11,999 nt of DNA from a virus. Both the position numbers and the translations under genes were made by a program. The notes under the pieces are model-generated. The model saw only the letters and a program-made list of their open reading frames with translations. It made no database searches and was not told the origin of the DNA. Where the stretch lies: the IMG/VR virus record IMGVR_UViG_3300031867_001436; one strand, written 5' to 3'. Each line of letters begins with the position of its first letter. The stretch's first letter is position 1. This document shows positions 5,134-8,100 of the stretch, piece after piece.

Positions 5134-8100
5134 ATGGCAAATGAAATTAGATATGGCGTCAAGTTTGACGTCGACAATAGTGGCTTATCTAGAATGAAAT
5201 CTGCCTTATAGTAGATTAGTACACTAAATAAATCTTTAAGCAATAGCGATGTTGCTAAAGCTATGGGTATTAGCGCAAAAGAAGCTACTTCATCTTTTAT
5301 AAAAATAAAAGAATAGATAATGAATGTTGAAAAGGCATTAAAATCTGCTTTTAATGCTAAATTAGATACTGTTAATATTGAAACTTTTAATAGAGTTTTA
5401 AAAGAATCAGGCAGCTCTATGGATCAAGTATATGCAGCTTTTAAAAATGCTGGTCCCGCTGGAATTGCTACATTTAATAGTATATCTTCTTCTGTATTAA
5501 ATACAAATATACAATTAAGATAGAGTCATACTTTATTAGATAAAATGGCTACTACTTTAGGTAATACTATTAAATGGAACGCGGCATCATCTGTTGTGAA
5601 TGGATTAACAAGATCTGTTGAACAAGCTTGGGGATATGTTAAAAATTTAGATAGTTCATTAAATGATATTAGAGTTGTTACTGGCAAGTCAGCCGATGAA
5701 ATGGCAAATTTTGCTAAACAAGCTAATGCCGCAGCACAAAGTTTAGGTAGAACTACAACTGATTATACAAAAGCTGCTTTAATTTATGCTCAACAAGGTT
5801 TAAGTGATGAATAGATTGCTAGAAGGTCTGAAATTACTTTAAAGACTGCTAATGTTACTGGACAATCTACTCAGGCGGTTTCTGAAGAATTGACTGCAGT
5901 ATGGAATGGTTATAAAGTTAATGCTGAAGAAGCTGAACTTTATGTTGATAGATTAGCTGCAGTTGCTGCAACAACGGCATCAGACCTTGAAGAATTATCA
6001 ACTGGTATGAGCAAAGTAGCCAGTGCGGCCGCCGCGATGGGCGTAGGATAGGATCAATTGGCGGCTCAGTTGTCTACTATTATTTCTGTTACTAGACAGG
6101 CTCCTGAATCAGTTGGTACTGCATTAAGAACTGTATATGCTCGTATTAGCGATATAAAAGCCGGTATTGATGAAGATGGGGTTACTCTTGGTAATTATTC
6201 TGGTAAGATGGCAGAACTAGGTTTTAATGTCCTTGATGCTGCTGGTAATCTTCGTGATATGGGCTAGGTCATGGAAGAAATCGGAGGAAGATGGCAAGAT
6301 CTTACTCGTGAACAACAAATTAACCTTGCTCAAACAATGGCAGGCCAAAGACAATATTCTAATTTAATTGCTTTATTTGATAATTTTGAATCATATAATA
6401 AAGCATTAGCTACTGCCCAAAATGCAGAAGGTACTTTAGCACAGCAACAAGATATTGCTATGGAAAGAACAACTGCACATTTAAATATATTAAAAGCATC
6501 TGTTGAAAATATTTATGATAGTTTAATTGATACTAAACCTATTAATAATTTAATAGATGGATTATCTGATGTAGCTAATAAAGTAGCAACTGTAATTGAT
6601 GGTTTTGGCGGTGGAATTCCTATTTTAAAAAGTCTTGGTGCTATTGGACTTTCTGTTTTTAGTACACAAATAGCAAGAGGAATTAATACCACAGTTATTA
6701 ATTTAGAGACTGCTAGAAATAATGCGTTACAATTTAGTCAGGCTCTTGAATCAACTAGGAATGTTTTAAAAATATAGGGGTTAGATGAAACTAGTAATAA
6801 ATTATTAAAAGCAAGGGAACAAATGCTCTAGCTTTCTAAAGTTATGACTCCTGAACAATTTTCTGGTATTCAAAATCTATTAAATGACTTAACAAAAGCA
6901 GAGAATGAGGTTTTAAAATTTAAAGGATAGATTAAAAATCTATCTGATGATTTACAAAAATTAGGAGTAAACTAGAATTTTAATGAAGTTGCTAATAATG
7001 ATGCTCTTAAAAATTCTATTGATGAAAAAATTTCAGCATATCAAGATTTAAACGAGAATATTGAAGCATATCAGTAGTTAGTTAGAGATATGCCTGAAGA
7101 AAAACTTGGTGAAAATGCTTCGATAAAAGCATTGATAGAAGATCTTAAAACTTTACAAGACTCTCAAATAATTACTAAAGAAAAATTTGAGTAGTTAAAA
7201 AAGGCTTTTGATGACGCAAATCAGGTTGGAGCGTCTCAAGATCAAGTTATAAATTTTTATGAAAAATTAGATGCTGCATTAGAAGAATTGAGACCAAAAC
7301 TAGATCCAGCTACTTTTGAAAAACTTTCTGCGGCATTACATGGAGATTTTTCGCAGGCTGCAGATGAAGCGACTGAAAAAGTACGAACATTATCAGAAAC
7401 TTTTTCAGATGCAATGGATCGAATGTTTAATGCTCAAAAATTAAAAACTTTTACTGATACGGTTGGAGCACTTGGTCGTATTGGTTCTGGAATTTCACAA
7501 CTTAAAAATTTAGGTGGAATTTGGAATAAAGAAGATGTCTCTATAGGGGATAAAATATTACAAACTTTAACAAGTATTGGTTTTGCTTTGCCGATGGTTG
7601 TTTCAGGAATAAAAAATCTTGGGGCAGCATTAAGTCTAACAGGAAAAGCTTTATCAGCTTTTAATGGTATTGCAATTGCTTTTACCGCTATCACTACTGT
7701 TATTGGTTTTGTAAATTCTGCCTTAAAATAGCATCAAGAAAATTTAAGAAAATAGAAAGAGTAGGCTATTGAAACTCAAAATAAATTACAATAGCAAATT
7801 GTTAAACAAGAATAGTTATGTAAATCCTTAGATGATTTAAATGAAAAAACTCAAAGTGGATAGTTAAGTAGAGCTGATTTAAGATCTGAAATAGATGAAT
7901 TAGTTAAATCTTATGATATTGAAGATGAACGAATTAAACAATTAAAAGGAACTTATGAAGAGACGACAAAAGCTATTCGTTAGATGCGTGAATAGGCCTT
8001 AACATCTAAAGAAGAGTCAACAGCAACTGAATTGGAAAATGCTCGTGGATTAGTTTGGAATAAAAATAAAAATGTTGGTGTTGGAACAGCAGAATGGCGA

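What the first reader, a model, noticed from the sequence alone, without database searches (positions are those of the whole stretch)
5134..5322. Tandem TAG-TAG gate at codons 26-27 of the TMP, then a third TAG at codon 61
Under standard decoding the TMP would terminate after a 25-aa peptide (MANEIRYGVKFDVDNSGLSRMKSAL, then TAG TAG at 5209-5214). Two adjacent amber codons this early would impose a strong requirement for efficient suppression before any TMP is made. This could act as a translational timing or lysis-control switch.
Basis: inference. Interest (0 to 1): 0.55.

Follow-up and report, generated by a model that had tools for sequence, protein, structure and literature searches.

The report
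Amber codon reused as sense codon
The two adjacent TAG "stops" are two of at least 65 TAG codons that this phage reads as an amino acid throughout its giant tail tape-measure gene, so they are not a special gate; comparison with relatives suggests TAG means glutamate here, not the glutamine reported so far for phages.

Summary
ATG is at 5134, TAG-TAG at 5209-5214 (codons 26-27) and TAG at 5314 (codon 61).

The pair is not special. The frame stays open from 5134 to the window end: 2,288 codons with 65 in-frame TAG, 0 TAA and 0 TGA. It encodes a TP901-type tape measure protein (PF10145, E=1e-28).
- There are two more TAG-TAG pairs. Three pairs against 1.8 expected gives P=0.27.
- The first 100 codons hold 3 TAG against 2.84 expected.
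- Only a 94%-identical contig shares the pair. Other relatives read Q-D, Q-E or Q-TAG there.

About 20 related ~120-140 kb rumen and gut phage contigs have the same ~2,900-codon gene, with 4-85 TAGs. Early genes are almost TAG-free (0 of ~1,150 codons in the window).

So this is late-gene amber reassignment, a known kind.

The unexpected part is the amino acid. In this clade, TAG columns align mainly with Glu (92 E against 14 Q of 153 in non-TMP families; TerL 13 E, 0 Q). In a related clade they align with Gln (25 Q, 2 E of 47). No CUA tRNA was found in about 70% of two related genomes, so the decoding machinery is unknown.

The parts
5134..11997 (+). Tape measure protein gene. It is 5'-complete and runs off the window end: 2,288 codons with 65 in-frame TAG, 0 TAA and 0 TGA.
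   Evidence: one open frame only if TAG is sense. PF10145 at aa 199-404, E=1.4e-28; homologues from Met1; relatives have 2,820-3,040-codon versions ending in TAA.
5117..5122 (+). Shine-Dalgarno-like AAGGAG, 11 nt upstream of the ATG.
   Evidence: Read directly.
5209..5214 (+). The tandem TAG TAG, codons 26-27.
   Evidence: homologues have Q (46 of 105) at site 26 and D/E/Q (27/22/19) at site 27; shared only with L003.
5314..5316 (+). TAG at codon 61.
   Evidence: the same column is TAG in L002, L004, L005 and L007, and E in L001, L006, L012 and the closest homologue proteins.
5728..6345 (+). Conserved PhageMin_Tail (TP901-type TMP) domain. It contains TAG codons 227, 306 and 378.
   Evidence: homologues have E at 83 of 118 (site 227), E at 38 of 120 (site 306; all close homologues) and E at 64 of 120 (site 378).
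10102..10107 (+). Second tandem TAG TAG, codons 1657-1658.
10129..10134 (+). Third tandem TAG TAG, codons 1666-1667.
4911..5102 (+). 63-codon gene just upstream of the TMP, with one in-frame TAG at 4986-4988. It ends in TAA.
   Evidence: Homologues lie upstream of the TMP in L001, L002 and L003; L003 has two TAGs in it.
4615..4896 (+). 93-codon gene upstream of the TMP, TAG-free, ending in TAA. It is conserved in relatives.
1392..3884 (-). 830-codon gene readable in the standard code (0 TAG). It is part of the divergent, TAG-free gene block.
3971..4396 (-). 141-codon gene readable in the standard code (0 TAG), with a weak match to a metal-dependent phosphohydrolase.
3..533 (-). N-terminal part of an RNA ligase-like gene (PHA02142 OB fold), 0 TAG, running off the window start.
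   Evidence: full-length homologues in L001 and L002.

Best explanation
The window comes from a large (about 120-140 kb) tailed phage of a rumen and gut lineage in which TAG has been reassigned from stop to sense codon in late genes.

The tape measure gene starts at 5134. Full-length protein is made only when UAG is decoded with near-complete efficiency at every one of its 65 or more TAG codons. The TAG-TAG at codons 26-27 and the TAG at codon 61 are ordinary members of that set. They carry no demonstrable position-specific role. In cells that cannot read UAG, ribosomes simply stop after 25 residues.

The gene-wide use of TAG in late genes, and its absence from early genes, ties late-protein synthesis to a change of decoding during infection.

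The amino acid inserted is most likely glutamate, not the glutamine of code 15.

What is shown:
- TAG is sense.
- TAG use differs between late and early genes.
- The pair is not conserved and is within chance.
- TAG columns behave like Glu columns.

What is inferred:
- How UAG is decoded. No CUA tRNA was found.
- My proposal is a tRNA(CUA) glutamylated by a non-discriminating GluRS of a Gram-positive host and not converted by GatCAB. In the related Gln-type clade it would be converted.
- That recoding acts as a timing device.

Sub-confidences: about 0.95 that TAG is a sense codon and the pair is incidental; about 0.7 that the residue is Glu.
For: TAG is sense:
- One open frame of 2,288 codons has 65 TAG, 0 TAA and 0 TGA. 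The other two frames carry 98-141 TAA.
- PF10145 spans three of the TAGs.
- 433 homologues were found.
- 16 relatives have 2,820-3,040-codon TMPs that are open only with TAG as sense and end in TAA.
- L003 shares the TAGs.
- All six complete genes in the window end in TAA.

Late versus early:
- The window's minus-strand genes have 0 TAG in about 1,150 codons.
- By gene family: PolIII alpha 0.03%, the two topoisomerase II subunit families 0.02% each, the NAD-ligase family 0%, TMP 1.9%, other late genes 1-3%.

The pair is incidental:
- Statistics.
- Non-conservation.
- Other tandem pairs elsewhere.

Glutamate:
- TMP family, clade A, TAG columns with a consensus: E 61, D 15, Q 14 of 139. Background is E 7%, Q 6%.
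- Mixture fit: 60% E-like (CI 0.48-0.71) and 8% Q-like.
- 64 other gene families: E 92, Q 14, D 14 of 153.
- Pairs at least 90% identical: GAA 50 and GAG 11 against CAA 12 and CAG 9.
- TerL of two relatives: TAG opposite E 13 times, D 3, N 1, Q 0 (my count).
- TAG sits at invariant E in 'YEREGFH', 'KFEFPR' and 'EEINI'.
- Internal control: the related clade B, same proteins, gives Q 25 and E 2 of 47. It also gives CAA 31 and CAG 11 against GAA 4 and GAG 2.
- In the window's closest homologues, 6 of the first 9 TAG sites are E.
Against: - No tRNA with anticodon CUA was found in the window.
- None was found in about 82 kb of 118 kb of contig IMGVR_UViG_3300032038_000025.
- None was found in about 75 kb of 130 kb of IMGVR_UViG_3300021431_000004 itself. 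A further roughly 10 kb was read only in a related metagenome contig (L457). Relevant calls: 23, 45, 51, 52, 60, 66, 68, 72, 88, 93, 95, 99.
- So the decoder is unidentified, and the parts not read could hold it.
- The Glu assignment is comparative only; there are no peptide data.
- A minority of TAG columns align with Q. These include window codon 26 (Q 46 of 105), the one window-L003 difference (CAG against TAG at codon 247), and 'TIQAQI' against 'TIXA' in the gene after the TMP. Mixed E/Q decoding is therefore not excluded.
- For the window alone the signal is weaker (E 0.40, D 0.15 in the mixture fit), because its TMP is only 24-39% identical to the full-length relatives outside the N-terminal domain.
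- Clades were defined by eye from TMP similarity, not from a phylogeny.
- The timing role is a published hypothesis, not something tested here.
Confidence: 0.75

Rival explanations
1. This is canonical code 15. TAG is read as glutamine, as in crAss-like, Lak and phAss-1 phages. The excess of Glu opposite TAG reflects tolerated E-to-Q substitutions.
For: - Gln is the only TAG meaning reported for phages.
- Some TAG columns align with Q: window codon 26, codon 247 CAG against TAG in L003, and 9-19% of TAG columns in clade A.
- CAG is enriched among the Q partners in close pairs, 9 CAG to 12 CAA.
Against: - If TAG were Gln, the synonymous CAG-to-TAG transition should dominate. That is exactly what clade B shows (Q 25, E 2 of 47).
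- Clade A shows E at 4-7 times Q in the TMP, in 64 other families and in TerL (13 E, 0 Q). This includes invariant Glu positions.
- GAG and CAG are equally rare in the window TMP, 19 each.
Confidence: 0.12
2. TAG is decoded ambiguously as a mixture of Glu and Gln. One way is a tRNA(CUA) that is glutamylated and only partly transamidated. Another is two suppressors of different identity.
For: - Both E and Q consensus columns occur under TAG in the same genomes. L008 has 'TIXA' where others have Q and 'SCXDET' where others have E.
- phAss-1 carries three different CUA tRNAs.
Against: - Q-type columns are no more frequent than expected from Q-to-E changes through the frequent CAG-to-TAG transition.
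- The mixture fit gives Q 8% with a confidence interval that reaches 0.
- Invariant Glu sites would not tolerate a large Gln fraction (inference).
Confidence: 0.1
3. The early tandem TAG-TAG is a selected, position-specific translational gate or timing switch for the TMP.
For: - The prior chance of an adjacent pair within the first 30 codons is 0.023.
- Columns 27 and 61 are TAG in several relatives.
- The family's first-100-codon TAG count is slightly high, 39 against 30.4.
Against: - The pair is present only in the window and its 94% relative.
- Other members have sense codons there.
- 63 further TAGs in the same gene impose the same requirement.
- The pair count is within chance (P=0.27).
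- Tandem pairs are scattered in other genes.
- The base following TAG is not unusual.
Confidence: 0.04
4. The gene is a decaying pseudogene, or the TAGs are assembly or sequencing errors.
For: Under the standard code the region shatters into more than 20 short ORFs.
Against: - Only TAG interrupts the frame: 0 TAA or TGA in 2,288 codons of a 32% GC sequence, where the other frames carry about 100-140 TAA.
- The protein is conserved over its whole length in many independent assemblies that show the same phenomenon.
Confidence: 0.01
5. TAG encodes pyrrolysine or another non-Glx residue, supplied by the host.
For: - ARAGORN labels any CUA tRNA as 'Pyl'.
- A rumen origin makes Pyl-using organisms plausible neighbours.
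- No phage tRNA(CUA) was found.
Against: - TAG columns are not Lys-like (K 5 of 153).
- No pyl genes were seen in the 60-80 kb read.
- The lysins are of Gram-positive bacterial type.
Confidence: 0.02

Closest known systems
Stop-codon-recoded ('alternatively coded') phages that use TAG as a sense codon (genetic code 15): crAss-like, Lak and others (Borges et al. preprint 10.1101/2021.08.26.457843; Peters et al. PMC9523058; Cook et al. PMC11210395)
   Same: - In-frame TAG concentrated in structural and late genes.
- Early and replication genes readable in the standard code.
- TAA as the usual terminator.
- Low GC content.
- Gut or rumen habitat.
- About half of such phages lack a detectable Sup-CTA tRNA.
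- The proposed role is timing of late and lysis gene expression.
   Different: In those phages TAG is assigned to Gln (predicted, and shown by mass spectrometry for two crAss-like phages). Here TAG columns behave as Glu.
phAss-1 / proposed Phassvirus group (OQ749652; Babkin et al. PMC10607447)
   Same: - About 136 kb phage whose TMP, TerL and portal are broken by TAG.
- Its TMP is the nearest annotated GenBank full-genome relative (30% identity).
- The TMP is preceded by a divergent lysis and early block.
   Different: - phAss-1 has 36 tRNAs including three CUA tRNAs, and TAG at conserved Gln positions.
- The window's clade shows no tRNA arrays and no CUA tRNA in about 70% of the genome read, and shows Glu-type columns.
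Peritrich ciliate nuclear code (NCBI table 30: TAA and TAG = Glu). From memory.
   Same: TAG is read as glutamate.
   Different: - It is a eukaryotic nuclear code.
- Both TAA and TAG are reassigned.
- It applies genome-wide rather than by infection stage.
TP901-1-family tail tape measure proteins (Pfam PF10145)
   Same: - The conserved domain at aa 199-404.
- Position after two small genes and before distal tail genes.
- Hydrophobic segments and long coiled-coil-like regions.
   Different: The length is extreme (about 2,900-3,040 aa in relatives), which implies a very long tail. The gene is recoded with TAG.
Tandem in-frame stop codons as fail-safe terminators (for example the yeast study PMC1088959, listed)
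   Same: Two stop-type codons close together.
   Different: Those lie after the true stop and reinforce termination. Here the codons lie inside the coding sequence and are read through as sense.

Membership tests
TAG-reassigned (alternatively coded) phage gene | Many in-frame TAG codons inside a gene whose full-length product is conserved. | tested here: met
   65 TAG in 2,288 codons with no TAA or TGA. The Pfam domain and homologues span the TAG sites.
TAG-reassigned (alternatively coded) phage gene | TAG is avoided as a terminator; genes end in TAA or TGA. | tested here: met
   All six complete genes in the window end in TAA. All complete TMPs of relatives end in TAA.
TAG-reassigned (alternatively coded) phage gene | Recoding is concentrated in late and structural genes, with early genes in the standard code. 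| tested here: met
   The window has 0 TAG in about 1,150 early codons against 65 in 2,288.
TAG-reassigned (alternatively coded) phage gene | A phage-encoded suppressor tRNA with anticodon CUA. This is common but not universal (about 35-60% of such phages). | tested here: inconclusive
   None in the window. None in about 70% of one clade-A genome or about 58% of a second, plus about 10 kb read in a related contig. The remaining 20-30% could not be fetched.
Genetic code 15 in the strict sense (TAG = Gln) | TAG positions correspond to conserved Gln in homologues. | tested here: not met
   Clade A: E 92 against Q 14 of 153. TMP: E 61 against Q 14 of 139. TerL: 13 E, 0 Q. The criterion is met in control clade B (Q 25, E 2 of 47).
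TP901-family tape measure protein | PF10145 PhageMin_Tail domain above the gathering score. | tested here: met
   100.6 bits against a cutoff of 33.2.
TP901-family tape measure protein | Location between the tail assembly chaperone genes and the distal tail genes. | tested here: inconclusive
   Two small conserved genes lie upstream, and a conserved large gene follows in relatives. Chaperone identity and a frameshift were not shown; the chaperone candidates have no PHROG hits.
Position-specific regulatory stop or readthrough element ('gate') | Conservation of the stop codon(s) at that position among relatives. | tested here: not met
   The pair occurs only in the window and L003. The others have Q-D, Q-E or Q-TAG.
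Position-specific regulatory stop or readthrough element ('gate') | A local excess over the gene's own background, or a special sequence context. | tested here: not met
   3 against 2.84 in the first 100 codons; pairs P=0.27. The base after TAG is distributed like that after GAA or GAG.
Pyrrolysine or selenocysteine-type recoding | Few sites, dedicated machinery, and Lys- or Cys-like columns. | tested here: not met
   65 sites in one gene. The columns are Glu-like, with K at 5 of 153. No pyl genes were noticed in the regions read.

The most novel reading that the evidence does not exclude
A lineage of about 120-140 kb rumen and gut phages, including the one in this window, reads UAG as glutamate. 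A related clade with the same gene set reads it as glutamine. The Glu-type genomes read so far carry no canonical tRNA(CUA).

This would be the first amber-to-Glu code in a virus or prokaryotic system. It would also show that the meaning of a reassigned stop codon can flip between close phage relatives.

One plausible route is the indirect Glu-to-Gln tRNA pathway of Gram-positive hosts: a non-discriminating GluRS, with or without GatCAB conversion.
Probability: 0.6. Interest if true: 0.8.

Novelty: new variant of a known kind. Interest (0 to 1): 0.6.

Why it matters
It should not be catalogued as a regulatory element.

The wider result matters for three reasons.
- **Annotation.** Current pipelines translate all TAG-recoded phages with table 15 (TAG = Gln). 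If this lineage uses Glu, every late protein is mis-translated at 1-3% of its residues, with a change of charge. Those proteins include a roughly 2,900-residue tape measure, TerL and the portal.
- **Mechanism.** Two related clades with different meanings for the same reassigned codon give a natural experiment on how a code change is set up. They can address which tRNA and which synthetase are hijacked, and whether transamidation decides the meaning.
- **Open question.** The apparent lack of a CUA tRNA in most of the genome sharpens the question of how about half of recoded phages decode their stop codon.

Tried and rejected
**Search for the decoder**
- I walked along related contigs with all 8 viral-collection scans, the metagenome scan and the genome scan.
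- I ran ARAGORN or Rfam on every locus.
- No CUA tRNA turned up in the clade.
- CUA tRNAs appeared only in phAss-1 and in one phAss-like contig (L079).

**tRNA-like genes in one subgroup**
- One clade-A subgroup has a small cluster (L447 6229-6830, L448, L457).
- It holds tRNA-Leu(CAA) plus aberrant tRNA-like genes. None has a CUA anticodon.
- I could not connect the cluster to UAG decoding and dropped it as an explanation.

**Pattern search for suppressor tRNAs across the collection**
- I considered this and rejected it.
- Fewer than 14 bases could be fixed without thousands of chance hits.
- The phage tRNA-Glu and tRNA-Gln sequences seen were too diverse to build a pattern from.

**Looking for the source contig**
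- An exact look-up of the 830-aa protein found no record.
- Megablast of the whole window against GenBank phages found nothing.

**TAG at a proven catalytic Glu**
- I looked for a TAG at the GH73 'LENGYG' catalytic site. In the lysin I read, that Glu is encoded by a normal Glu codon, so the check was not decisive.

**Promoter and terminator scan around the TMP start**
- Nothing above background.

**Readings rejected**
- Pseudogene, because only TAG interrupts the frame.
- TGA or TAA recoding, because neither gives a long frame.
- A later start codon that would place the three TAGs in a leader, because residues 1-62 are conserved as protein.
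Full report
**1. The observation**

The sequence is as described.
- An AAGGAG lies at 5117-5122 and the ATG at 5134.
- The gene opens with 25 codons, MANEIRYGVKFDVDNSGLSRMKSAL.
- TAG TAG follows at 5209-5214, and another in-frame TAG at 5314-5316 (codon 61).

Under the standard code the plus strand from about 4,900 to the window end breaks into more than 20 short ORFs.

With TAG allowed as sense, one frame is open from 5107 to the last base of the window.
- From the ATG it has 2,288 codons with 65 TAG, 0 TAA and 0 TGA.
- The other two frames of the same stretch carry 98 and 141 TAA.
- Allowing TGA or TAA instead gives no such frame.

**2. What the gene is**

- Residues 199-404 match Pfam PF10145 (PhageMin_Tail, the TP901-type tape-measure domain). 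The score is 100.6 bits and E=1.4e-28, and the match runs across three TAG positions.
- A protein search returned 433 homologues. The best are 72-74% identical and cover the query from Met1.
- The N-terminus MA-N-[EQ]-I-[RK]-Y is conserved, so 5134 is the true start and the three TAGs lie inside the coding sequence.
- An independent 6.3 kb contig (L003, 94% identical) shares all seven TAGs of the first 427 codons. It differs only at codon 247, CAG in the window and TAG in L003.

**3. The family**

Twenty related contigs were examined, from cattle rumen, a bioreactor and other gut metagenomes. Many are 118-142 kb.
- They carry the same gene, 2,820-3,040 codons long and ending in TAA.
- It is open only if TAG is sense, with 4 to 85 TAGs (0.14-3.0%).
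- A tape measure of this length implies an unusually long tail (inference).
- The nearest annotated GenBank full-genome relative is phAss-1 (OQ749652, 30% identity). It is the type of a published group of TAG-recoded ~136 kb phages.

**4. Is the early pair special?**

No, on four grounds.
- *Frequency.* The window gene has three adjacent TAG-TAG pairs (codons 26-27, 1657-58 and 1666-67) against 1.82 expected (P=0.27). The first 100 codons hold 3 TAG against 2.84 expected. Across 16 family members the first 100 codons hold 39 against 30.4 expected.
- *Conservation.* The pair occurs only in the window and L003. L001, L002, L004, L006, L008 and L012, and the best database homologues, read Q-D or Q-E. 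L005, L007 and L021 read Q-TAG. Codon 61 is TAG in L002, L004, L005 and L007, and Glu elsewhere.
- *Other tandem pairs.* They sit at unrelated places: L008 TMP 'KVXXAL', L359 TerL 'GISXXRL', L019 adaptor-like protein 'TPXXINI'.
- *Load.* With 65 TAGs, per-codon reading must exceed about 99% for half of the ribosomes to finish (0.99^65 = 0.52; my arithmetic). Two early codons add nothing measurable to that requirement.

The base after TAG is distributed like that after Glu codons.

**5.

- TAG use is stage-specific. The three minus-strand genes of the window have no TAG in about 1,150 codons.
- In relatives, gene families split as follows:
  - 0-0.2% TAG: topoisomerase II, NAD ligase, DnaB, primase, PolIII alpha and NrdD (ThyX, at 0.39%, is the highest of the replication-block families).
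  - 0.5-3% TAG: the TMP, TerL, portal, lysins and most tail genes.
  - Almost TAG-free: the major capsid and tail tube genes.
- All complete genes in the window end in TAA.
- This is the pattern described for alternatively coded phages. It has been proposed as a device that withholds late and lysis proteins until the code is switched.
- The proposal applies to the whole late gene set, not to codons 26-27. It was not tested here.

**6. Which amino acid?**

This is where the locus departs from what is published. Reports on phages give only TAG to Gln and TGA to Trp. I found no paper in the library reporting TAG to Glu in a phage.

Evidence from the clade that contains the window:
- *TMP alignment, 20 sequences.* TAG columns in which the TAG-free members share a consensus are E in 61, D in 15 and Q in 14 of 139. 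The background is 7% E and 6% Q.
- *Mixture fit.* These columns are 60% Glu-like (bootstrap CI 0.48-0.71) and 8% Gln-like.
- *64 other orthologue families, built from 123 loci.* The figures are E 92, Q 14 and D 14 of 153.
- *Pairs at least 90% identical.* The codon opposite TAG is GAA 50, GAG 11, CAA 12, CAG 9.
- *Two TerL genes read by eye.* TAG faces E 13 times, D 3, N 1 and Q 0.
- *A very conserved adaptor-like protein.* TAG replaces invariant Glu in 'YEREGFH', 'KFEFPR' and 'ELTELDT', and (in clade C) 'EEINI'.

The same alignments contain an internal control. In a related clade (L013, L014, L015) TAG faces Gln:
- Q 25 and E 2 of 47 columns.
- CAA 31 and CAG 11 against GAA 4 and GAG 2 in an 86%-identical pair.
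- It replaces invariant Gln in 'QQLASVEN' and 'KLLQLKKDY'.

If TAG meant Gln in the window's clade, the synonymous CAG-to-TAG transition should dominate there too. It does not.

For the window itself:
- The closest homologues have E at six of the first nine TAG sites (61, 130, 227, 306, 378, 566).
- They have Q at one (codon 26), D at one (codon 27) and P at one.
- The window-only mixture fit gives E 0.40 and D 0.15, with Q not among the top five.

I put about 0.7 on Glu. Gln, or mixed Glu/Gln decoding, are the main alternatives, because a minority of TAG columns are Gln-type.

**7. How UAG is decoded remains unknown**

- No tRNA is present in the window.
- Using every permitted collection scan, I read the following:
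  - 35,429-117,928 of the 117,928-bp contig IMGVR_UViG_3300032038_000025.
  - About 8.7-38 kb and 75-130 kb of IMGVR_UViG_3300021431_000004.
  - About 10 kb more in a related metagenome contig (L457).
  - Large parts of several other clade members.
- None has a tRNA(CUA), and most have no tRNA at all.
- One subgroup has a small cluster 3.3 kb upstream of the terminase region. It holds tRNA-Leu(CAA), a 98-nt tRNA-like gene with an 8-nt anticodon loop, and a 68-nt tRNA-like gene (51 bits to RF00005) whose anticodon loop is only 3 nt. None fits a UAG decoder.
- By contrast, phAss-1 has 36 tRNAs including three CUA tRNAs with Gln-like acceptor features.

My working proposal is an inference from textbook knowledge.
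- Many Gram-positive bacteria lack GlnRS. They make Gln-tRNA(Gln) through a non-discriminating GluRS plus GatCAB.
- A tRNA(CUA) with a Glx-type body would be glutamylated by the host.
- It would stay Glu or become Gln depending on whether GatCAB accepts it. That could explain how related clades differ.
- The host is not identified. The lysins and holin are of Gram-positive type.
- The MAG labels of related contigs (Bacilli, Erysipelotrichaceae, Anaeroplasmatales and others) probably reflect binning of free phage contigs.

**8. Verdict**

- The finding as written is a correct observation with an over-specific interpretation. It is part of late-gene amber reassignment, a known kind of system.
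- The evidence that the reassigned codon means Glu here and Gln in a related clade is consistent across many genes, but it is purely comparative.
- If confirmed by peptide data, it would be a new variant of phage recoding with practical consequences for annotation.

Noticed in passing
window 1392-3884 (-): An 830-aa protein with a Major Vault Protein 'shoulder' domain (PF11978, E=3e-23) and no PHROG match. Its Gln codons are CAG 26 to CAA 1, the reverse of the TMP (CAA 119 to CAG 19), and the region is richer in GC (35-40% against about 30%). That suggests a recently acquired gene. A homologue of 832 aa is in L004 (5358-7856) but not in L001 or L002.
   Followed up: partly
window 3-533 (-); L001 700-8500; L002 1390-8870: A block next to the TMP encodes an RNA ligase (PHA02142 OB fold plus RNA_ligase), a Thg1-like protein, an AAA_33 kinase and several metallophosphatases. 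This looks like a tRNA or RNA repair set. A link to the code change is pure speculation.
   Followed up: no
L447 6229-6830 (-); also L448 and L457 5209-5810: A cluster of tRNA-Leu(CAA) plus aberrant tRNA-like genes. One is 98 nt with an 8-nt anticodon loop (UUAAAGGU or UUGAAGGU). One is 68 nt, scores 51 bits to Rfam tRNA, and has a 3-nt loop (GAG) where the anticodon loop should be. A further Leu-like one is missed by both tools. A GC-rich, apparently structured 240-nt spacer lies between them. L048 19075-19146 has a similar tRNA-like gene with a GCAA tetraloop.
   Followed up: partly
L267 12685-18724 and L343, compared with L013 and L019 3300-9900: In the window's clade, a block of about 50 kb of early and replication genes on the opposite strand separates the head, connector and tail-tube genes from the TMP. 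In the related clades those genes lie directly upstream of the TMP.
   Followed up: partly
L351 7583-9288, L359 7648-9322, L343 878-2529 and 6440-7435: The putative major capsid genes (0-1 TAG in about 570 codons) and the tail tube gene (2 in 331) are almost TAG-free. The neighbouring TerL, portal and other late genes have 1-3% TAG. This suggests TAG is avoided in the most highly expressed late genes.
   Followed up: no
L036 18990-19988; L044 18844-19791: A gene of about 320-330 codons for a membrane protein carries 13 TAGs. It sits inside the otherwise TAG-free replication block, between the NAD ligase and ThyX genes.
   Followed up: no
window 4911-5102 (+): The 63-codon gene before the TMP has its single in-frame TAG at codon 26 (4986-4988), the same codon number as the TMP's first TAG. 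L003 has two TAGs in this gene, while L001 and L002 have none. This is most likely coincidence.
   Followed up: partly
window about 11626-11830 (TMP aa 2165-2232): A Gly-rich and then Lys/Asp/Glu-rich low-complexity stretch (GGSSGGGGGRGGGGGKKGGGGGKGKKGGSGSKKDKEDKKD...) with three TAGs among the charged residues.
   Followed up: no
L351 1581-4167; L229 12923-18051; L028 13468-16708; L021 1056-1772: Homing-endonuclease-like genes (GIY-YIG or HNH type) interrupt or flank TerL, PolIII alpha and topoisomerase genes in some relatives. They are themselves TAG-containing.
   Followed up: no
L002 18464-19450 (-): A tyrosine integrase gene (Phage_integrase) lies directly after the TMP in one lightly recoded relative. 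Some members may therefore be temperate.
   Followed up: no
window 1094-1300 (-): A 68-aa ORF with a weak PHROG match (E=2e-6) to a host RecBCD nuclease inhibitor family.
   Followed up: no
L026 12442-12532; L079 4632-4721: phAss-1 and a phAss-like contig share an about 90-nt CUA tRNA with a long extra arm, placed next to tRNA-Leu(UAA). phAss-1 additionally has two CUA tRNAs of normal length, so it carries three structurally different amber decoders.
   Followed up: partly
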